From the sequence record PX246731.1: a stretch of 64,000 nt of DNA. One strand, written 5' to 3'. The stretch comes from a phage. Every line of letters begins with the position of its first letter. The first letter of the stretch is position 1. Of this stretch, positions 12,251 through 47,441 are shown in pieces. Under the pieces are notes generated by a model. That model made no database searches. It had not been told where the DNA came from and saw only the letters and a program-made list of their open reading frames with translations. Position numbers and translations under genes: made by a program.

Positions 12251-13426
12251 ATGAACCAATTTCCTCAGCACACACTTAGTGATGAACAACTCATGCGTGA
12301 GTATGACCGTATTCAGGCTCAGGCCTTCCTGGGCAAGTCTGCTGCGTTCTTTGGTTCATTGCTGTGTAGTCTTAAGTTCTCATGGAAACGTGAGGATTGC
12401 CCCACTGCATGTACTGATGGGATAGAACTCCATTTCAACCCAGACTTCTTTATCTGGATGTGTCCAGATGCAAGAGAAACAGTATTAATGCATGAACTAT
12501 GGCATGTAGCATATCTACATGACATCCGTCGTGGAAGCCGTGACCCGGAAATCTGGAACCAGGCTTGTGACCACTTCATTAACCTTCAGTTAGAAGAAGA
12601 TGGTTACAAGTTCACTGGCATTGACAAAGGCATTTGCAAAGACCCTCAATATAAAGGATGGGTCGAAGAAGACATCTACGATGACCTGATGAAGAACCCT
12701 CAGAAAAGGCAGAAGCCGTCAGGGGGTGCTGGAGCAGGTCTTGCTGGCGACATGAAATCCCCCACTTCGGGGCAGTCCCAGGGTGCTGTTGTCAACAACG
12801 TAGTACGTGCAATGCAGAGCCAAAAGATGGCTGGTGGAACAATGCCCGGTAAGGGTGCTGGTCGTATGGAAGAGGTTATTACCCAATTCCTTAAACCAGT
12901 GGTTCCATGGCAGGAAGTTCTCATGAACTTCTTTACCGACATTGATGACACACATTATACGTGGGCCAGACCTAACCGTCGTTACACTGACATCTATCTA
13001 CCTTCACTGGAAGATGATGAAGGTCGTTTACGCCACTTAGCCTACTTTGAGGATGTGTCTGGTTCTATTAGTAGTGCTGACTCTCTGCGTTTTAACTCAG
13101 AGGTCGCCTATGTTAAGAGCCAGTTTAATCCTAAGAAGATGACCCTAATTACCTTCGACGATACTATTCAAGAAGAGATAGACATCACTGAAGAAGATAC
13201 TTTTGAAGAGATTAAGATTACTGGTCGTGGTGGTACAAACCTGGAACCAGTACGCGAGTGGATTATTAAGAATAAGCCAACCGCTGCAATCATATTCTCC
13301 GATATGTATGTTCGCCCAATGGAAGAATTGCCATTTGATATCCCTATCATCTGGTGTGTTCTGAATAATCCTAATGCTACCGTACCTTTTGGGGAGGTAG
13401 TTCATATCCCTAAAGGAATGAAATAA
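12251..13426 (+). CDS. vWA-like protein with metallopeptidase-like HExxH domain (DUF2201-like), partner of the AAA ATPase
   Basis: MHELWHVAYLH motif; Gly-rich linker; sits directly after a MoxR-like ATPase; start reassigned to ATG 12251. Confidence 0.55.
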   Translation: MNQFPQHTLSDEQLMREYDRIQAQAFLGKSAAFFGSLLCSLKFSWKREDCPTACTDGIELHFNPDFFIWMCPDARETVLMHELWHVAYLHDIRRGSRDPEIWNQACDHFINLQLEEDGYKFTGIDKGICKDPQYKGWVEEDIYDDLMKNPQKRQKPSGGAGAGLAGDMKSPTSGQSQGAVVNNVVRAMQSQKMAGGTMPGKGAGRMEEVITQFLKPVVPWQEVLMNFFTDIDDTHYTWARPNRRYTDIYLPSLEDDEGRLRHLAYFEDVSGSISSADSLRFNSEVAYVKSQFNPKKMTLITFDDTIQEEIDITEEDTFEEIKITGRGGTNLEPVREWIIKNKPTAAIIFSDMYVRPMEELPFDIPIIWCVLNNPNATVPFGEVVHIPKGMK

Positions 13427-13968
13427 TGGAAACACCCATAAAAACCTGTCGCAAGTGTTTGCAGGAGTTCCCGGCTACGCTTGAGTTCTTTTACAAGAAC
13501 GCTGGTGGCAAATATGGGGTAACTCCACGGTGCAAATCATGTGTTAATGAGGATAATGCAGCCGGGCATGCAAAACGTTTGGCTGCTAATCCAGAAAAGA
13601 TACGTGCTCAAGCTGCTGCCCGTAGTAAAAAACATTATTACAAAGATTTGGAACAATCGCGTGAACGACAGTGTATAGCTCAAAAGAAAGCGAGAAATGA
13701 TCCCGTAAGGGGAGAACGTATTAAAGCACGTAAACGTGCAAATGGTGCTGGGCTAACACCGGAAGAGATACAACAACTCCTCATTAGTCAAGGAGGCGTG
13801 TGTGCTATCTGTGGTGATCCACCTACCGATTTAGACCATTGCCATAAAACAGGTAAAGTTAGATTTCTACTATGTAAGCATTGCAATAGAGGACTGGGTG
13901 CTTTTAAAGATAAGCCAGAACTAATGCGAAAAGCTGCACAACTACTGGAAGACTTCAATGATAATTAA
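13426..13968 (+). CDS. HNH endonuclease, endonuclease VII-type (free-standing)
   Basis: CRKC...CKSC and CAICG...DHCHKTGKVRFLLCKHCN Cys/His clusters typical of Endo VII/HNH. Confidence 0.65.
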   Translation: METPIKTCRKCLQEFPATLEFFYKNAGGKYGVTPRCKSCVNEDNAAGHAKRLAANPEKIRAQAAARSKKHYYKDLEQSRERQCIAQKKARNDPVRGERIKARKRANGAGLTPEEIQQLLISQGGVCAICGDPPTDLDHCHKTGKVRFLLCKHCNRGLGAFKDKPELMRKAAQLLEDFNDN

Positions 13969-14410
13969 CCGTAATCGCTTACTTGAATTGTCTCCAATAA
14001 AAAACATGGTTAACTCAAAGCAAACCTTTAATGGTTTTTCTTGGGGATTAACAGAATGCGGATACGATATTCGTATTAAGCAAGATGTGACCATGTTTTT
14101 AGGTCGTCGTTTCGTGTTGGCTTCTGCCATAGAAGAATTCGATGTACCTCATAACCTAATGGGACGAGTACTCAACAAGAGTACCTGGGCCAGAAAGGGT
14201 ATTGATGCAAGCATGACTACCAATATCGAACCAGGATGGAAAGGTTTCTTGACTCTTGAGCTTCGTTATTCGGGAATATTGCCCATTACAATCAAAGCTG
14301 GTACTGGTATTGCACAGGTTATCTTCGAAGAGATAGCTGAACATTGTAGTTACAATGGCAAGTATCAGAACCAGGAAAACCAACCAGTAGCTGCTAGACC
14401 TTCAAAATAA
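13958..14410 (+). CDS. dCTP deaminase/dUTPase-superfamily protein
   Basis: GYDIRI ... IEPGWKGFLTLEL ... GIAQVIF resemble dCTP deaminase motifs. Confidence 0.5.
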   Translation: MIINRNRLLELSPIKNMVNSKQTFNGFSWGLTECGYDIRIKQDVTMFLGRRFVLASAIEEFDVPHNLMGRVLNKSTWARKGIDASMTTNIEPGWKGFLTLELRYSGILPITIKAGTGIAQVIFEEIAEHCSYNGKYQNQENQPVAARPSK

Positions 14411-14440
14411 AAGGCTATCCGGCTTAATCAAGGAAACAAC

Positions 14441-14647
14441 ATGTCAGCATTTCAAGTAACTCAAGAAAGTACTGGTATTCGCCTGACCCTTAATGCGAAC
14501 CAAGTGATTGCAGTACAAGAACTTACCGCAGGTAACTCTGCTATTACTACCGTAGGTGGTGATGTATTAATTACCAAAGAAACCTATCGTTCAGTACGTA
14601 ATTACCTGAAGAAAGCTCTTGCTCCTACAAGCAAAGATGCTGAGTAA
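14441..14647 (+). CDS. hypothetical protein (68 aa)
   Basis: ORF with AAGGAAAC RBS-like sequence upstream. Confidence 0.5.
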   Translation: MSAFQVTQESTGIRLTLNANQVIAVQELTAGNSAITTVGGDVLITKETYRSVRNYLKKALAPTSKDAE

Positions 14648-14720
14648 GTAGCTGCCTAAATAGCCCAGCATTGTTGGGCTATTTGTGAAGAAACTAACTC
14701 AACCCCACATAGGAACCATC

Positions 14721-14981
14721 ATGGAATCTTTAGCAGCAATCCTTGTTATGTTGTTTGTATTAGCTGTATACCTTATCCCTACTATCATTGCTTTTGCACG
14801 AGGCCATGCCTCTAAGTGGGGCATTGGTGTGCTAAACATCGTATTAGGTTGGTCACTGGTATTCTGGGTAGTAACACTGATTTGGGCACTGTCCAATAAA
14901 GGACAGTCTCAGACTACAATCGTTAACGTTGGTAGTGGTAACCAGTACAACGTGTCCCAAACGAGCAGTAAAGCAGAGTAA
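14721..14981 (+). CDS. superinfection-immunity-like membrane protein (Imm_superinfect-like)
   Basis: Two TM helices with IIAFARGHASKWG...LGWSLVFWVVTLIWAL, resembling the superinfection immunity family motif; ATG 14721 with AGGAA RBS. Confidence 0.55.
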   Translation: MESLAAILVMLFVLAVYLIPTIIAFARGHASKWGIGVLNIVLGWSLVFWVVTLIWALSNKGQSQTTIVNVGSGNQYNVSQTSSKAE

Positions 14982-15054
14982 CTAACCGAAGTATCCCCAA
15001 GAGGGTACTTCTGGAAGTTACTTCCAGCTCATTGCTTATCCATCTCCTAACCCA

Positions 15055-15083
15055 AGCCCACCTAACCCGTGGGCTTTTTTATT
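15055..15083 (+). terminator. rho-independent terminator
   Basis: AGCCCAC-CTAACCC-GTGGGCT followed by TTTTTTATTT. Confidence 0.75.
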
Positions 15084-15097
15084 TAAAGGTACTTCTT

Positions 15098-15478
15098 ATG
15101 TCAAGTAGACGAAATGGTAAGTCTATCCTACAAGGACTGGACTTCGGTAAGCTGGAACAAACTGCAATGCTTGCTTTAGGTAAAACTATCCATGATCAAG
15201 TGGAAAGTGAAATTGAAGCAGATATTTATACAAGAATGCAGGTTCTTATTAAGAAAAAATGGGTTACTACCAGATCCCTTCATTCATACATTCCCCCAGA
15301 ACCTCATCTGAAATCTAAGGTAGACCGAATCATAGATAAGTTCTGGCTTAACCCATGTAAGGATGACACGCAACTTTATCTGGCTCAAATACAAAAGAAT
15401 CCTCGTACTAAGGATGTATTCAAAGGCAAGAGCACTACCCATCACTACCCCTGGTATAGAAGAGGTAGTAAATACTAA
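15098..15478 (+). CDS. hypothetical protein (126 aa)
   Basis: First ATG downstream of the terminator contained in the listed ORF. Confidence 0.5.
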   Translation: MSSRRNGKSILQGLDFGKLEQTAMLALGKTIHDQVESEIEADIYTRMQVLIKKKWVTTRSLHSYIPPEPHLKSKVDRIIDKFWLNPCKDDTQLYLAQIQKNPRTKDVFKGKSTTHHYPWYRRGSKY

Positions 15479-15921
15479 TGCGTATTCCATTCCTAAGAAA
15501 AAGAGAACGAAATCCTGTTCTTTATAATAAAGGCATAGAGGATGAGTATGAACTCAACCGTAAAGCTCGTTCCTACACAACAAAATTATTCATGGGGACT
15601 AAAAACCCTGATAGATTATTGGACTTTGTTTTTGAACAAGTCTTTATCATATACAGCTTAGCTATGTCTGCTGGTTCACAAGAAGTGAGTGATAAGGCAA
15701 GAGATGCTCTCTGTATGCTCCATAAAGAGTATGAAGCCCTCATGTATGAAGACTTATACTCCTTTAAAAAAGAAACCGCTGTAGCGTGTTCTGTGGCTCT
15801 TACTGAAGGTGTAGCAGTATTACAGGAACTACCTCGTAGTGAGTTTAAGCTGGTATACGTTCAGGTTAAGAAAATCACAGAGACGAGAAGTGGTATCACC
15901 AACTATCTAAGGTCATTCTAA
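15478..15921 (+). CDS. hypothetical protein (147 aa)
   Basis: ORF with overlapping start (TAATG). Confidence 0.55.
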   Translation: MRIPFLRKRERNPVLYNKGIEDEYELNRKARSYTTKLFMGTKNPDRLLDFVFEQVFIIYSLAMSAGSQEVSDKARDALCMLHKEYEALMYEDLYSFKKETAVACSVALTEGVAVLQELPRSEFKLVYVQVKKITETRSGITNYLRSF

Positions 15922-16865
15922 TGATTAAGGCAACTGTCATTGCAGATTCCGTTCATCCAGAAACAGGAACTCGTATCACAACCTTTGAATTGGTTTACCC
16001 CCGATTCATTCACAGTGAGTTTATGACTCACCGTGTATTTAACCGTAACGCTTCAAGCAGTCGTGCTATCCCAACTGCTAAGTTCATCGAACAGGTTCGT
16101 AATGAACCAGTGATGCCAAGTCACTGGGGTAAGAACCAGAAAGGTATGCAAGCAGAGGAAGAACTCACTCCTTTGGAGATTGTAGACGCTACATTTGCAT
16201 GGAAGCAAGCTGCCACAAGTGCAGCTATCTATGCTGAAATCCTTCGTCGTGGGCAAGTACATAAGCAAATTGTTAACCGTATTCTGGAACCGTTCACACA
16301 TATCCGTGTAGTGGTAACTTCAACTAGCTGGGCTAACTTCTATGGATTGCGTGACCACAAAGATGCACAACCAGAGATTCGTAAACTGGCTCAAGCAATG
16401 CGTAAGGCACATGAGGAAAGTACGCCAAGGGCATTACCATATGGGCAATGGCATCTACCTTATATTGCTCATATTGACCGTGTTGGGGCTTACAATTTCT
16501 GCAAACGTAATCGAATTACACGCGATGAACCAAGTGATGCAGAAGTGCATGGACTACTTCTCAAAGTAAGTGCTGCACGTTGTGCCCGTGCTTCATATAA
16601 CAACTTTGAAGGACGCCCGTCCACTATCGAAGAAGATCTCGGTTTATTTGCTAAGTTAGTGGAAAACCAACCTATTCATGCTTCCCCAACGGAACATCAG
16701 GCTACGCCTATGAACCTTGGTGAGAAGTACGTGAATAACATGAACCCAGTTACATGGGAGCAAGGTGTTACATCCATGGATAAAGAAGGGAATCTGTATT
16801 CAGGTAACCTGCTCCACTTTATCCAATTCCGTAAGTTAATTCCTGGTGAGACTATTACTGAATGA
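15921..16865 (+). CDS. thyX: flavin-dependent thymidylate synthase ThyX
   Basis: ThyX signature RHR...S...SxR present (THRVFNRNASSSRAIP). Confidence 0.8.
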   Translation: MIKATVIADSVHPETGTRITTFELVYPRFIHSEFMTHRVFNRNASSSRAIPTAKFIEQVRNEPVMPSHWGKNQKGMQAEEELTPLEIVDATFAWKQAATSAAIYAEILRRGQVHKQIVNRILEPFTHIRVVVTSTSWANFYGLRDHKDAQPEIRKLAQAMRKAHEESTPRALPYGQWHLPYIAHIDRVGAYNFCKRNRITRDEPSDAEVHGLLLKVSAARCARASYNNFEGRPSTIEEDLGLFAKLVENQPIHASPTEHQATPMNLGEKYVNNMNPVTWEQGVTSMDKEGNLYSGNLLHFIQFRKLIPGETITE

Positions 16866-17101
16866 AAAAACTAGCTCTATATGCAATGCTAACTAGTGGC
16901 TTACTCTCATTAATTTTCGCATACAAAGTCGCCTTTGTATTAGAAACAGATATGCAGTTCATTCGAGCCAGTATTCTGTTCTTCGTAAGTGAGATTGGTT
17001 TGTGGTGTCTTTATTATATTGCCCGTGACTATGAAGCAATTCGTGAGCAAGAAGAAGTGAAAAAACAAATGATACGTTTTGTAGAACAAAATCGTAAGTA
17101 A
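16862..17101 (+). CDS. small membrane protein (79 aa)
   Basis: Two hydrophobic helices. Confidence 0.5.
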   Translation: MKKLALYAMLTSGLLSLIFAYKVAFVLETDMQFIRASILFFVSEIGLWCLYYIARDYEAIREQEEVKKQMIRFVEQNRK

Positions 17102-17892: not shown

Positions 17893-20460
17893 ATGTTAGT
17901 TGCAGATACCAATGAAGTAGCTACCTCAGCGACACTGGGTGGCAAAGAAACAATTGCCTTTGGCATCTCTGATGACCCGGCATTCTTCCATGTATTAAGT
18001 ACTTCCCTATATAACAATCCTACCTTAGCAGTAGTTCGTGAGACTATCTGTAACAGTTGGGATGCTCATATAGAAGCTGGTAAGACTGATAATCCTATTC
18101 GTATCACTATTGATACTGATAACTTTATTACCTTTCGTGACTACGGTAATGGTATTCCAGATGAACTCATTGGTTCCATTTATGGTGTCTATGGTGCATC
18201 TACTAAGAAGTCCAACAGTAGTGTTACCGGTGGCTTTGGTCTGGGATGTAAATCCCCATTCGCTTATACAGATAGCTTCCAGGTTACTTCATGGAACCAG
18301 GGAAAGATGTCGGTATACAACGTAGCTAAGGCTGCGATTGAGAATGATGGTAAGCCTGGTATTGTTCCTATTGTTACTGGTATTCCTACTGAGAAATCTG
18401 GTCTAGAAGTTAAATTCCAGTTAGGCAAACATGACGTAAATACCTTCATACATTACATCACATCAATCGTATTTAACGGTGAGATTAAAGCTGAGCTTAG
18501 TATTCCTAAACTAGTTAAAACAGAAGCAGGAAATAATATTCAACAAGGTGACTACACTTTACTAAATACGCTGGGAATGTCATTTGAACCTGGTTCATAT
18601 GATATGTCTGATAGCTGGTATCAGGGTTATATGGGTAACAGTAACATATTCGTTCGTTACGGCAACGTAATGTACCCAATAGTATCTAGCCCAGCTAGTG
18701 AAGAAGCTGTAGGTCTTATCCTCAACTTTATGAACATCATTGGTGCATCTAATTTAGTAGTTCAGGCTGCACCGGATACTCTAGCTATTGCCCCTAGTCG
18801 AGAAACACTGTCTAATCAGAAGTTAACCGACGATGGTATTACTACTCTATGTGTAGATTTAGTAAACCGTATGGAGAAAGAGATTAAGGCTAAGATTCCT
18901 GAAGCTATTAAGCAGGTTGAAGAATATGCCTCTAAATCCTCTACCTGCTTCTGGACCTATCCGTCTTTCCTGCTTGCTGTTACAGACAGAATCGTTCAAC
19001 GTTATATGTCCTCTAGTTTGTGGGCTAAGCAACGTAAGCATCACATCAAGCATTGGCGTAATCTATCCAATAAAGCATTATTAGCTCGTCCTGAATATGC
19101 AGGTCTTAAGAAACTGTATGGTAAGGCTATGCGTGCTCTTAAGGATACTCGCGAAGAAAGTACATACTCCCCATTCCATGAATTAGTATATCGTCATCTA
19201 CACTTACCTCAGCTTGCTGCTTTAAAAGCTGCTGGTATTAAGTGGTCTGGTTACATAGTGAACCAGGGTAACAGTGTTGACTTGGAGAAGGGTAAACTCG
19301 CTGACTACTTTAGGATATTCCATAACTCTCATCAAAGTATTGGCATATTCACTACCAAGAACGTTGTAGTTACCCGACGTTTATCTGATTGTGCAGACTC
19401 TTTCTCATACTTCCCCGAATACAACCGAGGTGACCTGGAGCGTACAGCTTTTGTTCACTTAGTTGGTCCTAAGAAGGGTGCAGCAGAAGAAGCTGTAGCT
19501 AAGTTCACTGCTATGGGTTATCGGGTGATTGACCTTACTCAATATAATGAGTGGGACAAACCAACCAACTACCGCAGAGAGCAGGCTAAGATAGCTGCTG
19601 AGAAACGGGCTAAGACAATAGCTGCCAATAAAACCAAAGCAGGGGGTAAAACTAATGCTCTGATTTCATTGAATGCAGTTCTTGGTACTACTCCTGTACA
19701 TAATAAAAACGGTGATTGGGAATTTAAGCCGTATATTCAGAAGGAGTTTGCTGACCCAAGTCGCCATGAAAAGTATGGTTTCGTTGAAGTAGAGCATCCT
19801 AAGTACTATGTACTGGCTAATCAGGTTGGTTCTGGTAGTCCATTAACTGCCAGAATTGGAACCATGTGGAAATGGTATGAGCTATCTGATGAGATGAAAG
19901 CAGATACTGTTGTCTGTCGCAATCGAATCGAAGCTAATAAGGCCAAACGACGAGGTGCTATCCACATTGATGATGTTCGCTTTAATGAGTTGATGTCAGT
20001 TATTACCAGTAAAGGCTTCAAGAAGTATGTTACTGAACACCGCATCAGTATTCTGGATTACATAGGACTGGATGACAGAGAGTATTGGGAAATCCTTGAC
20101 ATACTGGGTCTAACGTTCAAACCATTACAGAATCTGATTTTTAAACCAGAGTATGAATGGGCATATGACTTTCTACGGAGTCGACCACATGACAACAAAG
20201 AAAAACTTGTTGAAATGGGCTGTATTAAATCAGTAGATGACTTAGAGCCATATAGAATGATGGCTAATCCACGTAATCATAAGTACTTTAAAATTCTTAA
20301 TGATTACAAAGAATTATTCAGTTATAGCTGGAATAAAAATGACATCCTACAGACGCTGGACTTAGGTAGTTTGGTAAAACACCTTAAGAAGAATCCAGAG
20401 GATATTCCTGGGTTTAAGTCCCTCTACCGTAACCGTCTAAATAAACTGAAAGGTAACTAA
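17893..20460 (+). CDS. rIIA: rIIA-like protein (histidine-kinase-like ATPase fold)
   Basis: 855 aa; N-terminal HATPase-like motifs (NSWDAH, DYGNGIP, GGFGLG); followed by rIIB-sized partner. Confidence 0.7.
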   Translation: MLVADTNEVATSATLGGKETIAFGISDDPAFFHVLSTSLYNNPTLAVVRETICNSWDAHIEAGKTDNPIRITIDTDNFITFRDYGNGIPDELIGSIYGVYGASTKKSNSSVTGGFGLGCKSPFAYTDSFQVTSWNQGKMSVYNVAKAAIENDGKPGIVPIVTGIPTEKSGLEVKFQLGKHDVNTFIHYITSIVFNGEIKAELSIPKLVKTEAGNNIQQGDYTLLNTLGMSFEPGSYDMSDSWYQGYMGNSNIFVRYGNVMYPIVSSPASEEAVGLILNFMNIIGASNLVVQAAPDTLAIAPSRETLSNQKLTDDGITTLCVDLVNRMEKEIKAKIPEAIKQVEEYASKSSTCFWTYPSFLLAVTDRIVQRYMSSSLWAKQRKHHIKHWRNLSNKALLARPEYAGLKKLYGKAMRALKDTREESTYSPFHELVYRHLHLPQLAALKAAGIKWSGYIVNQGNSVDLEKGKLADYFRIFHNSHQSIGIFTTKNVVVTRRLSDCADSFSYFPEYNRGDLERTAFVHLVGPKKGAAEEAVAKFTAMGYRVIDLTQYNEWDKPTNYRREQAKIAAEKRAKTIAANKTKAGGKTNALISLNAVLGTTPVHNKNGDWEFKPYIQKEFADPSRHEKYGFVEVEHPKYYVLANQVGSGSPLTARIGTMWKWYELSDEMKADTVVCRNRIEANKAKRRGAIHIDDVRFNELMSVITSKGFKKYVTEHRISILDYIGLDDREYWEILDILGLTFKPLQNLIFKPEYEWAYDFLRSRPHDNKEKLVEMGCIKSVDDLEPYRMMANPRNHKYFKILNDYKELFSYSWNKNDILQTLDLGSLVKHLKKNPEDIPGFKSLYRNRLNKLKGN

Positions 20461-20464
20461 TCTG

Positions 20465-22513
20465 ATGAAAATCGAACTGATTTCTATCATCGCACTGGCA
20501 GTTGACAGTCGTAATCTTACATTGTGGAAGCCTGATGGCTCCACGATTGTATATCCTCAGAGCGACCCACGGGTTGCTCGCATTGTATCTGAAGCACAAA
20601 CCAAAGGTTTGGGAACTACTAAAGACCAGATAGAAGTAAACATTGCACCAGAAGAAAACCTGCGTACTGAATATCTGGAAGCAGAGAAGAACACTAATGG
20701 ATTCGTCCGTTTCTTCAAGGTAGCTAAAGCTAAACTTAAAGAGTTCTTCCAGGATGGTACAGGTGTCCAACCTGCACACATAGTCTCAGATATTAAGTTG
20801 GGTAATCCTACTAAGACATTAGTATCTAAAGCCATGGATACCTTCCTGGCTGTACAGGCTAATGAACCAGAAGTAACAGTAGTAGATGGTTGTTATGACA
20901 GACGTGACAACCTGATGTGGGTTACTGGCTGGGATAAGGACCATAACCATCTTGCACTGGTTCGCTTTATTAACGATGTATTGTATTGGGGTTATGTCCA
21001 TACCGACCGTATTCTTGCACAAGAGTGGCCTATTGCAATTCGTGCAGTATCCGATGATGAAATGAGTGAGTTTGCTAAACAAGCTAAGCACATCAAAGGA
21101 GTACACATTGTATTTACCAGTCGTGATGTAACTCCATTTCCTTACGTAGAAGTAGCTAAAACTACGAACCAGGATAAACTGGCTGCTGCTTCTGAGAAGT
21201 TAGCTGCATTGGGGGCTATTAGTACCGATGATGCTAACTTCCATACTGATGTGAAAGAAGATGAGGTGGTTGTTGCTGTTACCAACAATGGGGTTATCCC
21301 TGGGGTTGAAAACCTGCATCGTCACTTACGTCAGTCTGCCAAGCTTAAAGACTACAAGGGCTTTACTAAGTTCCTTGAACGCCTGGCTCCGGTTATTAAA
21401 GACCGTCTGCACTCAGTAGAAGACCTGATGAAGTTCATGGAGACTGCTGAATTACCTATTGCTGATGATGGTTCAATCCTGTTCCTGAAACGCCTGCAGT
21501 ATAAAGGCAACGAAGATGGTAAGCGTGTATTCGTTGACTGTCACTCAGGTAACATCAAACAGTGGGTAGGTTGTAAAGTGCAGGTACGTGAAGACCTGGT
21601 AGACCCTGACCGTCGTCAGGACTGCTCAAATGGTCTGCATGTAGCATCCATGAGTTATATCCGTAGCTTCGGTGGTAATGTGACCATCCTTGGTAAAGTA
21701 GCACCAGAAGACGTATTTGCTGTTCCTCAGTACAACACTAATAAGATGCGTGTATCTGCGTATCATATTATTGCTGAACTACCGGAAGAGGAGCGTAATA
21801 ACGTTAACAATGGTATCTACCTGTCTAAGACAGAAGTAGGTAAAAAGCTGCTTAATGATGCCATCGTTGGTAACCATAGTTCACCTACCACACTTATTAT
21901 GGTTGGTGGTCATTATGGTACTAACCTCAAATACACTAATCTCACATCTGGTTCTGTAGAACAATTCCGTACAATTGCTAGTAAAGAAGCACTGAACATG
22001 GAAGAGTCACTGAATGAAGCTGTAGCTGCTGAACCAGTGAAGGCTACTGACCTTAAACCTGTTATTAAGAAGGCTCCTACTGTGAAAGAACAAATCCAGG
22101 AACTGGTAAAAGAGTTCCTCAATGCAACAACACCAGAAGATAAGTTAGCTGCTGCTGATTTGCTTGTGGAAATGCGAGGCAAGGCTCGTAAGCCATGGGC
22201 TGCTTTAGGTGTTAGTTCCGATGTGGTGGATGCAATTGCTACTATCCGTAGTACTCGCATTCCTGTACCTAAAGCTGTTAAGCAGGATAAGACAGTTAAA
22301 CCTACGCGTTATGCTACTGCCACTAAAGTAGCTACGTCTGGTAAACACGCTGATAATCTGCGAAGCATCCTTAATGATACGACGTACTCTGACTATCAGA
22401 AAGGCCATGCTCTGCAAGACTATAAGCGTCATGCTAAGAAGTCATTCACTGCAATGGGTCTGACTGAGGAAGAAGCTAAGTTAGCTACCAATCTGGTCAA
22501 AGCTGCTAAGTAA
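20465..22513 (+). CDS. rIIB: rIIB-like protein
   Basis: 682-aa ORF immediately downstream of rIIA-like gene; assignment by synteny. Confidence 0.5.
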   Translation: MKIELISIIALAVDSRNLTLWKPDGSTIVYPQSDPRVARIVSEAQTKGLGTTKDQIEVNIAPEENLRTEYLEAEKNTNGFVRFFKVAKAKLKEFFQDGTGVQPAHIVSDIKLGNPTKTLVSKAMDTFLAVQANEPEVTVVDGCYDRRDNLMWVTGWDKDHNHLALVRFINDVLYWGYVHTDRILAQEWPIAIRAVSDDEMSEFAKQAKHIKGVHIVFTSRDVTPFPYVEVAKTTNQDKLAAASEKLAALGAISTDDANFHTDVKEDEVVVAVTNNGVIPGVENLHRHLRQSAKLKDYKGFTKFLERLAPVIKDRLHSVEDLMKFMETAELPIADDGSILFLKRLQYKGNEDGKRVFVDCHSGNIKQWVGCKVQVREDLVDPDRRQDCSNGLHVASMSYIRSFGGNVTILGKVAPEDVFAVPQYNTNKMRVSAYHIIAELPEEERNNVNNGIYLSKTEVGKKLLNDAIVGNHSSPTTLIMVGGHYGTNLKYTNLTSGSVEQFRTIASKEALNMEESLNEAVAAEPVKATDLKPVIKKAPTVKEQIQELVKEFLNATTPEDKLAAADLLVEMRGKARKPWAALGVSSDVVDAIATIRSTRIPVPKAVKQDKTVKPTRYATATKVATSGKHADNLRSILNDTTYSDYQKGHALQDYKRHAKKSFTAMGLTEEEAKLATNLVKAAK

Positions 22514-45600: not shown

Positions 45601-47441
45601 AAGCTATCCATAGACATGATGTTGTCATACATCTGGATTGCAGCTTCCATTTGAACGTTAGGGTCTTCGGCAGTATTAACCAAGTCAGCCATCTTCTGAA
45701 TAGCTTCAACACGGTTAGTGGAACCAGAAACAGCTTCACGGATTGCCGGGCTAGCCTGTTCCAGTTCTACTGGGTCAAACTTCATTACCTGAGTTAAGTC
45801 AGCAGCATACTGTGTAGCAGCAGCTTTCTCTTCAGGAGAAATGTCCATTGCATCTACTGCTTCCTGAACAGTTGCCTGTGCCTGTTCTGCCTGAGCAGTA
45901 GCTTCTTGTGCAGCAGCGTTAACCGTAGCATCAGATACAGGGGATGCTTGCTCATTACGCTTAGCAACTTCTTCACCACGCTGAACCAGGATGTTAGTAA
46001 TAGGTGAAGCTACTTTCGCTAATGCTTTACCAGCCAGAGAAGCACCAGCCAGGGTAGTACGTACAGCAGGACCTACGGCAGCACCAGCAGCCTTAACAGT
46101 TGCACCAGGAGCTTGAGCAACTCCAGCACTACCGAAGCCATACAGTGCACCAAGCCCGGTTTGTTCACCCACACCTTTAAGCAAATCACGATTAGCATCT
46201 ACATTACCTTGAATTGCTTTGTTCTGTGCAAACTGACTTGTACCAGACTGGATACCTTCTTCTACAGTCTCACGCAGCATGTTAGAACCAGCTCCAGCCA
46301 GTGAACCTACCTTAAGTGGGTTAAGTTCAAACTTGGATACCAGTGGAGCAGTAAGAGCAGCAACTGGAGCAGTTAAGCCAGCAGCAGTGATACCTGTTTC
46401 AGATGCAGTCTGACGACGTGCTTCTTCAGGAGACAGACCATCTTTAATATGCTGTTGGTATACAGGAGATTTAGCAGCCAGTTCACTGAACGGCATTTCC
46501 ATAATTTCATTAGCAGTCTGCTGGTATGCACCACCAGCTTCCATACCACCAATTGCTATAGCAGGTGCAGCAACACGACCAGTAGCTAATGCAGTACGTG
46601 CAGGACGCGAACCTAATTCAGCAGCTAGGGTAATACCCTTAACAGCTTTATCACCACCTACCATTACTTTACCAAGTGCAGATACACCACGGATAAGTGG
46701 ACCACCAGTAAACAATGAACCAACACCCTCAGCCAGACCATCTGTAGCAGCCATGCCATTAGATAAGGTGTTAGCAACAGAATCATAAGCATCACGACCA
46801 ATTCGAGATAGGGAAGCAACGAGTTCACTTTCTCCTTTATCAATATCTTGCTTATAGAGTTTCTCATTCTCCTGAGCAGATATTACGTTCTGGTTCTGTA
46901 CTACATTACGGCGAGCATTCAGTGCATCAGACTGTAGGTTGTGTACACCTTTATTTAACCAGTCAAGACCGGAAGCAGTGGATGCCCCGGCATTATCATT
47001 GACCAAACCTGTGCCAAGAGCAGCAATGCCCCCAAGGGTATTAGCAACACCAAGACCAACACCAGAAAGGGTATCACCAAGTGCTTCACCATATGTACGA
47101 CTCTTAGTTAAATCACGACGAACAGCATTAGCTGCATTGACACGAGCATTGAGAATGTCCATTCCTTGCTCATTGCCATACTTGTTTATGATTTCAAGAG
47201 GAGAGGCATTAGTAAAATCTGCCTGAATAGAACCTGGGTTAAATGCACCAGCACCTAAGTTACCAGCACGGCCTGCCTGTAATTGGTAGGCGTTCTGTGG
47301 GGTTAATTGGAAAGGGTTTTGCCCTTGTTCAGCTTGTTTCCGAGAGGTTGCAGTAGAGACATCGACTTGCTTAGCAGTAGTGATGCTGTCTGCGAAACCT
47401 GCCAGACGGTCAAATGTTGACATAGCATGATTCCTGTTCAA
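36636..47441 (-). CDS. virion-encapsidated RNA polymerase (vRNAP, N4 gp50-like), 3601 aa
   Basis: Single uninterrupted 10.8-kb ORF, the size class of N4 gp50; sits with RNAP II genes and hairpin promoters. Confidence 0.85.
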   Translation of the reverse strand: MNRNHAMSTFDRLAGFADSITTAKQVDVSTATSRKQAEQGQNPFQLTPQNAYQLQAGRAGNLGAGAFNPGSIQADFTNASPLEIINKYGNEQGMDILNARVNAANAVRRDLTKSRTYGEALGDTLSGVGLGVANTLGGIAALGTGLVNDNAGASTASGLDWLNKGVHNLQSDALNARRNVVQNQNVISAQENEKLYKQDIDKGESELVASLSRIGRDAYDSVANTLSNGMAATDGLAEGVGSLFTGGPLIRGVSALGKVMVGGDKAVKGITLAAELGSRPARTALATGRVAAPAIAIGGMEAGGAYQQTANEIMEMPFSELAAKSPVYQQHIKDGLSPEEARRQTASETGITAAGLTAPVAALTAPLVSKFELNPLKVGSLAGAGSNMLRETVEEGIQSGTSQFAQNKAIQGNVDANRDLLKGVGEQTGLGALYGFGSAGVAQAPGATVKAAGAAVGPAVRTTLAGASLAGKALAKVASPITNILVQRGEEVAKRNEQASPVSDATVNAAAQEATAQAEQAQATVQEAVDAMDISPEEKAAATQYAADLTQVMKFDPVELEQASPAIREAVSGSTNRVEAIQKMADLVNTAEDPNVQMEAAIQMYDNIMSMDSFINRDPGALANLEQGSPAANIVDQFSGLMANVQNTPKVLRAFRAIHSMIQEQAEAGKLKATEKANQAQANNIAMAADMSPEVLDADSVNMVLKHASEGKITLGNRQRAALQSAAALLQGAREFDAKAEELGLRPQDIVSKQIKTDESRSNEGQYSALQHAKRIRSAYNSGNFDLASAYLDDFMKFAQHMQNKVGALNEHLISGNADKNKSVHYQALTPSREWVRSRTGLGVNPYDTKSVKFAQQVGLEAKTVADIANALATAYPELNVSHVKVTPLDSRLDKPAAQVVKEFRQGNLDAAQSQQTNEPVNQVDEAPVIKQEPVTPTVQTKPSVSEAVKTEPTIKESKPQTVKEPENQSEKQDIVEQPTESERDSYVKENTISQDTLNKYGDRRDSPWLFADGTVVGSNGDHISLSDVFGHDGYRDMSLDTGAVRSTFYKGSEQPFVSLQLFDNQKLTAEQFNTVQSFVEANNALIQIGVDTSGLNTNNVEKEEVSLAQLKADYTVGGKPLSGMEAVFPVYNNEKTPNQFLKAFSLPEEPKSRTIGSESPLTDVKKALSSAARFEAFTQKENNALTSDVIKRYQDLFEFGETLKTTLSDRLAKFLANKNVGKRFAEGTEANRWVGGKLLNIVEKDGDTFKFNDQLLETAVLAGLQWRLTATQNAAIKDMQDVAAITGVNASLLPEGILAEFENAQTLVEATNSLAQKIESYWGLNRNADAPLGYTKGIPMAMATEILSSLIEMGEVKESMLDVSEIDPESNKTIGLYTIEKLDDTDAINKFPTAIEEAVLVEPVEKLYFGDDIPPVAHTQLRNPAVRNTPEQKAALKAEQATEFFVHTPMVQFYEALGKDRILELMGAGTLDKDLLNKNHAKSLEGKNRSVEDSYNQLFSVIEQVRAQSEDISSVPIHYAYNMTRVGRMQMLGKYNPQSAKLVREAILPTKATLDLSNQNNEDFSGFQLGLAQALGIKVHKMTRETMSEELTKALEGKLKPAVDMMVEFDKSGYLPTDAVNILTTSLGNDKSFVALMALMEYARYLNSDDRANFNTPLYVEADGVTNGPINAMVLMTGGKFTPNWIKNTAKGGLFFGKAGKTMNEHHTQEDSVDLYEASTNSLQFYLNELRNAYSKNIPVINQMDHLQKLMDLFIKDFNLNEDGTLDLKRGIAKNPLTITIYGSGARGIAGKMVSAITDTIYERLSDVLKARAVDPNISPAMAMFGKEAASEADAQAMLDTFLTSMKALTGNIPAKRKGKLFIKEVDGVLTGKLDPQEFTVSGDALKNLQENMLHFFVEPMRQGIRFTVGDGLMQSTENLQKATQIQSLVLQDMFQQAVQAKLAEKEKDPTWKKGDFLTQKELNEIQNSLAPLAPMIETGSQTFYIAGSENTDVANQVLATNLDDRMRVPMSIYAPSQAGVAGIPFMTIGTGDGMMMQTLSTMKGAPKNTLKIFDGMNIGINDITDASRKANEAVYTSWQGNPIKNVYESFSKFVKNVDLNKLSDSAIDAIAKSALDFEQRTHIARVDGDRDYKISMIKDSGIALIERNLRNIALGVDIRHKVMDQVQVTVDQMAAVGAPYVNNGKISLEGLTVDQQVAKLNELFDAELNKRRDAVRAAKAEPVKEVPAMEQVGRVLKSGVRLLSNTAITKLAKEMSPEQQEVLKEIQKSLAAKDYKVVYGTPSQLDAYAIEKNITRPAPEDIEAAEAGNAYGWTNFEDKTIYLVTPSLETLVHELVHASTFESVLAHYEGTPNEAVQNIEDLMNQFRALDVNDESPAVREAYADALNTINGHLSNGFIEPAMAKAAALNEYMAWGLTNRELISKQKKTTALKTMVQAVYEAIKRLVFGRKKAPANADDMFSGLLFNSAVVMRGQAPTAAVAKDTTLFHNKAYGDNTRLEELGKTFDKLITNYIGSEPVQQVIRKGKFSDAVVNATKVTRDVQAHGFTMNMQEQRLFTNIVAALATEAAINPAAMARAQEYYTHVTKNLTVEAFMADPDSTNPADRYYAQQKFDTIMGANNIEFDAQGRSSLLPTFVGLAMVSEEVRKVLADIPVMKADKKSGNTVDAMLTNIGTAAMASLNARVAGDTKATNVQEGMDALAQTIMQTSLNAESFYDSVATPTGNAIDRANQYLVDSIDVLSTRALEGAREVAANTKNPLVKGAAHAAQLVAAIATEKNGSIVAEGVMAAMNQGKVWQPFHDLVNDIIGRTKSNASVYDLIKAVRAQVQADRQQFREHLPTTIAAKFSRKLTNDEWKAMHTGMGKTDLAVLRDTMSLDEIRDLLTDQKIVDREVNKLEADLQKQAGRNWPLINRKSKQLAQYMINGTVGNNLLRNATAISRLLGERKTTRSVVDVAQLDKLITLYALEAMNKIDREMLSSLAQTEIEGMDFATSYLVGQRKDEMAKAKSDSRATLNQYKGYIPGETKQGVNLIVAEDSQFADLIEKSYVRLGTYQGSSANRGSARSYYFAPVQAQAPFSQGILQNVRNTAGGVDLGTGFTMGTMVAGRITDKPSVDRITKALARGERGNEPLLPVYDANGNVVAYEQSIDPNMLKHIEGENHLARAIGVWRGRQVEEAKAQRFNDMLIENLHSMYENDIKMSASNKSQYVNLLGSKLDPVTADALKLMNSETRQKAESLFGPGELWVRRDMLNDALGYRAASVGDAWSGNSRWSPETLDTFKKAMLGVFGNRAYKYVMGGENLVQNLVKEAKTLIVVKSVVVPAVNFLANLYQMVARGVPVKNIAKSIPQKTAEINQYLKSRLRQVDAEAELRAATNPNQIRKLKAEIQSISDSHKRLSIWPLLEAGEFSSIADAGIGRDDILITEGKLHEYMDKLADKLPKSVRNAGRYALITKDTALFQGIQKTVEYSDFIAKAIIYDELTQRKGKTREEALGRVTEEFINYDRLPGRFRGYMESVGLMWFYNFKIRSAKVAVSMIRNNPVHAAMAMLAPTPTMFGNVGLPIQDNIFSIAAQGNLGYSFGFGQGLRAHTLNPWLNLTN

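What the first reader, a model, noticed from the sequence alone, without database searches (positions are those of the whole stretch)
14721..14981. Superinfection-immunity-like membrane protein in a lytic N4-like genome
The 86-aa two-TM protein carries ARGH and GW...W..LIWAL motifs resembling the superinfection immunity family. It may exclude secondary infection or control DNA injection.
Basis: partly seen in the sequence, partly recalled or inferred. Interest (0 to 1): 0.4.

Follow-up and report, generated by a model that had tools for sequence, protein, structure and literature searches.

The report
T4 Imm-family membrane protein gene
This is a real, conserved gene for a small two-helix membrane protein of the same family as phage T4's superinfection-immunity protein Imm; relatives of this N4-like coliphage already carry that annotation, so the finding is correct but ordinary.

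Summary
The ORF at 14721-14981 (+) exists as described. It encodes 86 aa with two hydrophobic helices, ARGH at aa 26-29 and GWSLVFWVVTLIWAL at aa 43-57.

Pfam PF14373 (Imm_superinfect) scores 60.2 bits against a cut-off of 27.9, over the full model. PHROG 1039 "immunity to superinfection" gives 3e-32. T4 Imm hits the same Pfam model (58.2 bits) and aligns directly (31% over 48 aa, E 5e-10).

The window is a Gamaleyavirus (G7C-like, Schitoviridae). An identical protein is already in NCBI. Orthologues in St11Ph5, EC1-UPM, PhAPEC5, Bp4 and Bas96 are already annotated as membrane or superinfection immunity proteins.

The gene is under purifying selection (dN/dS 0.03-0.22). It is absent from N4 and sits as a moron-like insertion in the ancestral gp27-gp28 spacer.

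The function is inferred only; I found no experiment on any N4-like Imm. The family is very large (7,637 clusters at 50% identity) and also occurs in non-prophage bacterial contexts. "Blocks genome entry of secondary phages" is therefore the best guess, not a demonstrated role. Already known; low interest.

The parts
14721..14981 (+). imm-like CDS (86 aa plus stop); gp27.1 in G7C/St11Ph5 numbering
   Evidence: orthologue annotations; dN/dS 0.03-0.22
14766..14891 (+). PF14373 Imm_superinfect domain (aa 16-57): end of TM1, basic loop RGHASKW, and TM2
   Evidence: 60.2 bits, model positions 1-42 of 42; all near-invariant family residues present: Y17 P20 A24 R27 H29 I35 N39 G43 W44 W49 L53 W55 A56
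14727..14798 (+). predicted transmembrane helix 1 (aa ~3-26)
   Evidence: hydropathy; AF2 helix 2-26
14817..14894 (+). predicted transmembrane helix 2 (aa ~33-58)
   Evidence: hydropathy; AF2 helix 34-63
14895..14978 (+). polar S/T/N/Q-rich C-terminal tail (aa 59-86) containing QTTIVN. It is variable: 86-aa and 80-aa alleles occur among Gamaleyaviruses.
   Evidence: AF2 pLDDT <50 for aa 71-86; semi-conserved QT[VI][IV][VI]N motif family-wide
14711..14714 (+). Shine-Dalgarno AGGA, 6 nt upstream of the ATG
   Evidence: read directly from the sequence; 100% conserved in 4 phages
14657..14685 (+). 13-bp stem, 3-nt loop hairpin after the gp27-like gene. It has no proper U-tract and is a possible leaky terminator or RNA-stability element. 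N4 also has a hairpin shortly after gp27.
   Evidence: spacer folds at -20.1 kcal/mol, z -3.1; conserved; N4 spacer
14988..15011 (+). 9-bp hairpin immediately after the imm stop codon; part of the inserted segment
15054..15082 (+). intrinsic terminator (AAGCCCAC...GTGGGCTT followed by TTTTTT). It is homologous to the terminator in front of N4 gp28 and now closes the imm transcription unit.
   Evidence: annotated as a terminator in PhAPEC5

Best explanation
The ORF is a functional gene for an inner-membrane protein of the T4 Imm family (PF14373). It has two transmembrane helices joined by a short basic loop (RGHASKW) and a polar C-terminal tail. It is a lineage-specific accessory gene: present in essentially all G7C-like phages (Gamaleyavirus), absent from N4, and inserted moron-like into the ancestral gp27-gp28 intergenic spacer. 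That spacer lies in the rightward early/middle block, among nucleotide-metabolism genes.

The most likely mechanism, by homology with T4 Imm, runs as follows. The protein is made soon after infection and inserts into the cytoplasmic membrane. There it alters the site where an incoming phage genome crosses that membrane, so the DNA of secondarily adsorbing phages is left in the periplasm and the infected cell is reserved for the first phage.

Shown here: the gene is real; it belongs to the family; it has the two-helix architecture; it is under purifying selection; it is an insertion relative to N4. Inferred: membrane location and topology (positive-inside suggests a cytoplasmic loop with N- and C-termini outside), expression timing, the exclusion activity, and which phages it would target.

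The confidence given (0.6) refers to the functional mechanism. Confidence that this is a real gene of the PF14373 family is about 0.98.
For: Pfam PF14373 scores 60.2 bits against a cut-off of 27.9 over the full model. PHROG 1039 'immunity to superinfection' gives 3e-32.

T4 Imm scores 58.2 bits on the same model and aligns at 31% identity over 48 aa, E 5e-10. The T4 RefSeq note describes Imm as leaving superinfecting DNA in the periplasm, and PMC6024767 states that Imm blocks T-even DNA injection.

All near-invariant family residues are present. Two hydrophobic helices are found by hydropathy and AF2. dN/dS is 0.03-0.22.

About 55 phage records carry a copy at >=60% identity, against 59 records that match the surrounding region. 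A six-frame profile search of the whole N4 genome finds no homologue. The flanking hairpin and terminator correspond to the N4 gp27-gp28 spacer.

The family has been captured independently by unrelated virulent phages: Straboviridae, Acinetobacter phages, K1ind-type and other small Escherichia/Salmonella phages, and a Burkholderia phage.
Against: Only T4 Imm has been characterised, and identity to it is 31% over the core.

The family is very large: 7,637 clusters at 50% identity. It occurs in chromosomes of many bacterial phyla, including non-prophage contexts: downstream of dnaN-gyrB in Helicobacter anseris, and between a dipeptidase gene and a patatin-like gene in Dorea. The family name may therefore over-generalise one member's role.

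N4-like phages deliver their genome by a different route, which depends on virion RNA polymerase and transcription. Whether an Imm-type block would act on the phage's own kind is unknown.

By position the gene is probably a middle gene, not an immediate-early one as in T4 (inference from N4 gene order).

The Bp4 copy is truncated after aa 61.

No experimental paper on an N4-like Imm was found.
Confidence: 0.6

Rival explanations
1. The protein acts in membrane protection or lysis timing. It would stabilise the infected cell's inner membrane against damage from secondary adsorptions (lysis from without), or contribute to the superinfection signal for lysis inhibition. Blocking genome entry would not be its primary role.
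For: [quoted passage not shown] N4 shows lysis inhibition in response to superinfection. The window phage carries rIIA and rIIB homologues at 17893-20460 and 20465-22513.
Against: N4 shows lysis inhibition without any Imm homologue, so Imm is not required for it in this phage group. In T4 these phenotypes are usually read as consequences of the injection block. The gene is not next to lysis genes: its neighbours are dCTP deaminase, gp27, gp28, gp29 and ThyX.
Confidence: 0.2
2. It is a generic small membrane protein whose biochemical role is unrelated to phage-phage competition, for example modulating a host membrane transporter or the envelope. On this reading the 'superinfection immunity' label is a family name inherited from a single member.
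For: There are 7,637 family clusters across Proteobacteria, Acidobacteria, Bacteroidota, Firmicutes, Chloroflexi, Actinobacteria, candidate phyla radiation lineages and cyanobacteria. Housekeeping neighbourhoods were seen in 2 of 2 loci inspected. There is no PADLOC defence-family hit.
Against: The family has been acquired repeatedly by unrelated virulent phages. The only tested member is an exclusion protein. A chromosomal Campylobacter member (cj0423) lies in the host operon most strongly induced by T4-like phage infection, which points back to phage-related roles even for bacterial copies.
Confidence: 0.15
3. It is a holin or antiholin-like lysis protein, since Imm has been said to resemble a holin.
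For: It is small with two transmembrane helices. The Abedon review notes that Imm 'reportedly molecularly resembles a holin'.
Against: No holin family appears in the Pfam or PHROG hits. The gene is on the rightward strand among nucleotide-metabolism genes, whereas in N4 the lysis cassette gp60-63 lies in the leftward late block. T4 Imm is not a holin.
Confidence: 0.03
4. It is a chance ORF and not a gene.
For: None beyond its small size.
Against: Strong family hits, purifying selection, a conserved ribosome-binding site and 76 orthologues in ~70-kb phage contigs.
Confidence: 0.01

Closest known systems
Bacteriophage T4 Imm (gene imm, NP_049660, 83 aa), the founding characterised member of Pfam PF14373
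   Same: Same Pfam family with nearly equal scores (60.2 and 58.2 bits). Same size. Same architecture: two hydrophobic helices, a short basic loop (RGxxSK) and a W-rich second helix (W..IW). Both have a short hydrophobic stretch in the polar tail (TIVNV here, VIII in T4). Both are encoded by a virulent coliphage outside the late/structural genes and near nucleotide-metabolism genes.
   Different: Only 31% identity over 48 aa. T4 Imm lacks the family-consensus residues H29, N39 and G43 that the window protein keeps. T4 pairs Imm with a second exclusion protein, Spackle, which inhibits gp5 lysozyme; Spackle was not searched for in the window. The host phage is a podovirus that co-injects a 3601-aa RNA polymerase and draws its DNA in by transcription, unlike T4's contractile-tail delivery. 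Expression is probably middle here, not immediate-early.
Orthologues already annotated in Gamaleyavirus genomes (St11Ph5 gp27.1, EC1-UPM, PhAPEC5_25, Bp4, ECBP1_0031, Bas96_0062, nithesis CDS0057)
   Same: 63-100% identical over the full length, at the same locus between the gp27 and gp28 homologues. They are annotated 'putative membrane immunity protein', 'immunity to superinfection' or 'superinfection immunity protein'. An identical 86-aa protein is already in NCBI.
   Different: Essentially nothing. The window carries the 86-aa tail allele ending SKAE and has T52 where most orthologues have A.
Bacterial chromosomal PF14373 proteins, e.g. Campylobacter jejuni Cj0423
   Same: Same domain. Cj0423 lies in the host operon (cj0423-cj0425) most strongly up-regulated on T4-like phage infection.
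   Different: They are host-encoded, often carry extra C-terminal extensions or domains (lengths up to 348 aa), and some sit in housekeeping contexts. None has a demonstrated function.

Membership tests
Pfam PF14373 Imm_superinfect / T4 Imm family | Score above the curated gathering threshold of the family HMM, over the full model | tested here: met
   60.2 bits against 27.9; model positions 1-42 of 42 at aa 16-57
Pfam PF14373 Imm_superinfect / T4 Imm family | Direct sequence similarity to the characterised member, T4 Imm | tested here: met
   BLASTP gives 31% identity and 60% positives over 48 aa, E 5e-10. T4 Imm itself scores 58.2 bits on PF14373.
Pfam PF14373 Imm_superinfect / T4 Imm family | Small protein (~60-110 aa) with two hydrophobic helices separated by a short basic loop | tested here: met
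   Hydropathy; AF2 helices 2-26 and 34-63 with loop 27-33, mean pLDDT 67
Pfam PF14373 Imm_superinfect / T4 Imm family | Family-wide near-invariant residues (Y..P..IA..R.H ... I...N...GW....W...L.WA) | tested here: met
   All are present in the window protein, by column counts over 152 sequences
Pfam PF14373 Imm_superinfect / T4 Imm family | Location in the cytoplasmic membrane, and topology | not testable with these tools
   Only a positive-inside inference is possible: the loop carries R27, H29 and K32, against a near-neutral N-terminus and a tail with net +1. The primary paper on T4 Imm topology (Lu et al. 1993) was not available.
T4 Imm-type superinfection exclusion (function) | Expressed early enough after infection to protect the infected cell | tested here: inconclusive
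   The gene lies in the rightward early/middle block, downstream of the RNAPII genes and among middle-type genes by N4 analogy. No sigma-70-like promoter was found. No transcript data are available.
T4 Imm-type superinfection exclusion (function) | Expression blocks genome entry of superinfecting phage | not testable with these tools
   This needs plating-efficiency and DNA-entry assays. No published test for any N4-like Imm was found.
Holins | Match to a holin family and/or linkage to endolysin and spanin genes | tested here: not met
   No holin family in the Pfam or PHROG hits. Neighbours are dCTP deaminase, gp27, gp28, gp29 and ThyX.
Known bacterial anti-phage defence systems (PADLOC) | Match to a PADLOC model | tested here: not met
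   0 families at E <= 1

The most novel reading that the evidence does not exclude
The Imm of G7C-like podoviruses may not be a self-exclusion device. It could instead be a cross-family weapon, or a sensor, directed at competing phages in the gut such as T-even myoviruses. In that case the variable C-terminal tail would set target specificity. The tail has 86-aa and 80-aa alleles that recombine independently of the conserved membrane core. This would make the tail a small, swappable specificity module for studying how a two-helix protein stops genome translocation across the inner membrane.
Probability: 0.15. Interest if true: 0.45.

Novelty: already known. Interest (0 to 1): 0.12.

Why it matters
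It matters little as a discovery, because the gene and its family assignment are already in public annotations. There is some residual value. How T4 Imm blocks DNA entry has never been explained, and the family is very large and almost wholly uncharacterised. A member in a podovirus with a quite different genome-delivery mechanism, with natural tail alleles and a tractable BASEL-collection relative (Bas96), could serve as a comparative system. For phage-cocktail design, an exclusion gene in Gamaleyaviruses could cause antagonism with co-administered phages.

Tried and rejected
1. The longer GTG start at 14685 (98 aa) was rejected. It has no ribosome-binding site, lies inside the hairpin stem, and all annotated orthologues start at the ATG.
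2. N4 gp28 as a diverged counterpart was rejected: there is no similarity, and gp28 instead matches the C-terminus of the next window ORF.
3. An Imm homologue elsewhere in N4: none was found by tblastn or by a six-frame profile search.
4. NCBIfam and PADLOC gave nothing meaningful.
5. The PDB sequence search gave only a spurious hit to a designed repeat protein with 0 significant stretches, so no solved relative exists. I did not run a fold search, because a two-helix hairpin at pLDDT 67 would give meaningless matches.
6. The sigma-70 promoter scan found nothing upstream of the gene. The N4 RNAPII middle-promoter consensus could not be retrieved from the literature held, so no promoter call was made.
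7. The primary T4 Imm papers and the T4 genome review were not held.
8. The first genome-contig scan, using a 46-sequence alignment, failed for lack of a conserved stretch. It worked with 11 sequences.
9. ORF-based inspection of the neighbourhood in high-GC bacterial loci was abandoned as unreliable. Only two low-GC loci were scanned.

Full report
**Observation.** The + strand carries an ORF from ATG 14721 to the TAA at 14979-14981, encoding 86 aa: MESLAAILVMLFVLAVYLIPTIIAFARGHASKWGIGVLNIVLGWSLVFWVVTLIWALSNKGQSQTTIVNVGSGNQYNVSQTSSKAE.
- An AGGA Shine-Dalgarno sequence at 14711-14714 sits 6 nt upstream of the ATG.
- The mechanical ORF list extends the frame to a GTG at 14685. That codon has no ribosome-binding site and lies in the descending arm of a hairpin. 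All annotated orthologues start at the ATG.
- Hydropathy gives two hydrophobic segments, aa ~3-26 and ~33-58.
- AlphaFold2 on a 30-sequence alignment gives helices 2-26 and 34-63, a loop at 27-33 and a low-confidence tail, with mean pLDDT 67.
- ARGH is at aa 26-29.

**The gene is real.** Among eight orthologues, Nei-Gojobori dN/dS over codons 1-61 is 0.03-0.22, with dS up to 0.48. The ribosome-binding site and upstream spacer are almost identical in four phages. A search of 5.8 billion proteins returned 76 relatives. All carry PF14373 and most sit on ~70-kb contigs. One is 100% identical and present in NCBI.

**Genome context.** The window is an N4-like podovirus of the genus Gamaleyavirus (G7C-like; Schitoviridae, Enquatrovirinae).
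- It has a 3601-aa virion RNA polymerase ORF at 36636-47441 (-).
- It has homologues of N4 gp1, gp2, gp15, gp16, gp17, gp29, rIIA and rIIB in N4 order, starting at window position 148.
- The 3.5 kb around the gene matches 59 phage records by megablast. Nearly all are Escherichia or Shigella Gamaleyaviruses, for example St11Ph5 at 96.7%.
- The local gene order is: VWA-like gp25, an Endonuclease VII-domain gene, dCTP deaminase, gp27-like, imm, gp28-like, gp29-like, ThyX.

**Family assignment.**
- Pfam PF14373 (Imm_superinfect) scores 60.2 bits against a gathering score of 27.9, covering the whole 42-position model at aa 16-57.
- PHROG 1039 "immunity to superinfection" gives 3.3e-32.
- T4 Imm, translated from NC_000866 26373-26624, scores 58.2 bits on the same model. 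It aligns directly with the window protein at 31% identity and 60% positives over 48 aa, E 5e-10.
- An exhaustive HMMER scan of 1.84 billion cluster representatives found 7,637 clusters at E <= 1e-3.
- In an alignment of the best 150 of these plus T4 Imm, the near-invariant positions are Y17, P20, A24, R27, H29, I35, N39, G43, W44, W49, L53, W55 and A56. The window protein has all of them. T4 Imm lacks three: H29, N39 and G43.
- A semi-conserved QT[VI][IV][VI]N stretch follows the second helix. It is QTTIVN here and NQVIII in T4, and it lies outside the Pfam model.
- No family member has a solved structure.

**Evolutionary anatomy.** N4 has no Imm homologue anywhere, by tblastn and by a six-frame profile search. 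The same profile finds exactly one hit in the window, at 121 bits.
- In N4, gp27 and gp28 are separated by a 113-bp spacer. The spacer holds a hairpin after gp27 and a terminator (GCCCAC...GTGGGCTTTTTT) before gp28.
- The window has a corresponding hairpin at 14657-14685 (13-bp stem, 3-nt loop; the spacer folds at -20.1 kcal/mol, z -3.1).
- It also has a homologous "cattgctta...GCCCAC...GTGGGCTTTTTT" terminator at 15054-15082.
- The imm gene and an extra hairpin at 14988-15011 lie between these two elements.
- The gene is therefore a moron-like insertion into an ancestral spacer; St11Ph5 labels it gp27.1. It is now closed by the ancestral terminator.
- About 55 phage records carry a copy at >=60% identity, against 59 records matching the region, so the gene is close to universal in the genus.
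- Beyond the genus, the nearest phage homologues are in Acinetobacter phages (~52%), T4-like phages of Citrobacter, Klebsiella and Escherichia (37-46%), several 42-48-kb Escherichia and Salmonella phages, and a Burkholderia phage. This shows repeated capture by unrelated virulent phages.

**Mechanism.** What is known rests on T4.
- Imm, together with Spackle, makes infected cells refractory to secondary T-even infection (PMC7677548).
- The T4 RefSeq note says Imm causes a membrane change that leaves superinfecting DNA in the periplasm. PMC6024767 summarises it as blocking T-even DNA injection.
- T4 imm mutants are also partly defective in resisting lysis from without and in maintaining lysis inhibition (PMC6832632).

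By homology, the window protein most likely inserts into the inner membrane after infection and prevents genome translocation from secondarily adsorbing phages. The positive-inside rule (R27, H29 and K32 in the loop) suggests a cytoplasmic loop with both termini periplasmic. This is inference only.

**Reasons for caution.**
1. Identity to T4 Imm is modest.
2. N4-type genome entry differs from T4's. Virion RNA polymerase is injected, and transcription by it and then by RNAPII draws the DNA in (PMC4496689). The target range could be self, T-even phages or something else.
3. By position the gene is probably a middle gene.
4. The family occurs in the chromosomes of very diverse bacteria. Both low-GC loci I inspected are housekeeping neighbourhoods: dnaN-gyrB in Helicobacter anseris, and dipeptidase/patatin/argG in Dorea. 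Against that, a Campylobacter member lies in the host operon most strongly induced on T4-like phage infection.
5. No paper testing an N4-like Imm was found.

**Rival readings.** I rank a primary role in membrane protection or lysis timing at about 0.2. N4 shows lysis inhibition without Imm, which argues against necessity. An unrelated generic membrane function is at about 0.15, a holin at about 0.03 and a chance ORF at about 0.01.

**Novelty.** The assignment is already public.
- The annotation "putative membrane immunity protein" appears in St11Ph5, EC1-UPM, PhAPEC5 and Bp4.
- "Immunity to superinfection" appears in the RefSeq versions.
- "Superinfection immunity protein ... moron" appears in Bas96.

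The finding is ordinary and deserves a low score. Modest residual interest lies in the unexplained Imm mechanism, the two C-terminal tail alleles that recombine independently of the core, and possible antagonism in phage cocktails.

Noticed in passing
window 13426-13968 (+): A 180-aa ORF with a Pfam Endonuclease_7 domain (PF02945, 67.9 bits) lies between the gp25-like VWA gene and dCTP deaminase. The two relatives whose gene tables cover this junction (St11Ph5, nithesis) have no gene there, and for most relatives the megablast match to 13400-16900 starts only ~560 or ~950 nt into the query. The dCTP deaminase ORF here is 150 aa, against 168 aa in N4, St11Ph5 and nithesis. It looks like a mobile homing-endonuclease-type insertion.
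   Followed up: partly
window 14895-14978; L088-L091, L001, L002, L005: The Imm C-terminal tail has two alleles among Gamaleyaviruses: an 86-aa form (...QSQTTIVNVGSGNQYNVSQTS-SKAE/QSDK) and an 80-aa form (...QNQVTNVTVVQTNGGSKAE). The nithesis core is nearly identical to K57alpha1.2 and ECBP1 (dN 0.007) but carries the other tail. This implies recombination inside the gene.
   Followed up: partly
P0066 (Escherichia phage Bp4): The Bp4 Imm copy is 67 aa and diverges after aa 61 (...SNKGRTRLQM). This is a frameshifted or truncated tail, so either the tail is dispensable or the gene is decaying in that phage.
   Followed up: no
family alignment; window aa 64-69: A semi-conserved QT[VI][IV][VI]N(N) stretch follows the second helix in most of the 150 most similar PF14373 representatives and in T4 Imm (NQVIII). 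It lies outside the 42-residue Pfam model. It may be a short beta-strand used for oligomerisation or partner binding.
   Followed up: partly
L029 4001-4168 (Helicobacter anseris); L022 4001-4168 (Dorea sp. D27): Bacterial PF14373 genes occur in non-prophage neighbourhoods: directly downstream of dnaN-gyrB and next to a C39 peptidase in Helicobacter, and between an M19 dipeptidase and patatin/argininosuccinate synthase in Dorea. The family spans at least ten phyla.
   Followed up: partly
L006 7668-9092 (N4 gp18-gp20) compared with the window: N4 gp18 (annotated 'superinfection exclusion, similar to P22 gp17'), gp19 (membrane protein) and gp20 (lipoprotein) have no tblastn match in the window at E <= 1e-3. 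Conversely, the window has Imm and N4 does not. The two genera therefore carry different accessory envelope or exclusion genes.
   Followed up: partly
window 16862-17101 (+): A second small hydrophobic protein (79 aa, about two hydrophobic segments by eye) lies just downstream of ThyX, where St11Ph5 annotates gp30.1. It has no Pfam hit.
   Followed up: no
L089 (OY979416.1, Klebsiella phage vB_Kpl_K57alpha1.2): In this public record the imm region is covered only by a ~10-kb 'virion RNA polymerase' pseudogene feature on the opposite strand. This appears to be an annotation error.
   Followed up: no
L001 ~3520 (St11Ph5) compared with window 15098: The gp28-like gene starts with ATG in the window and in PhAPEC5. 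St11Ph5 has GTG at the same position, which probably explains why only a short 144-nt ORF is annotated there.
   Followed up: no
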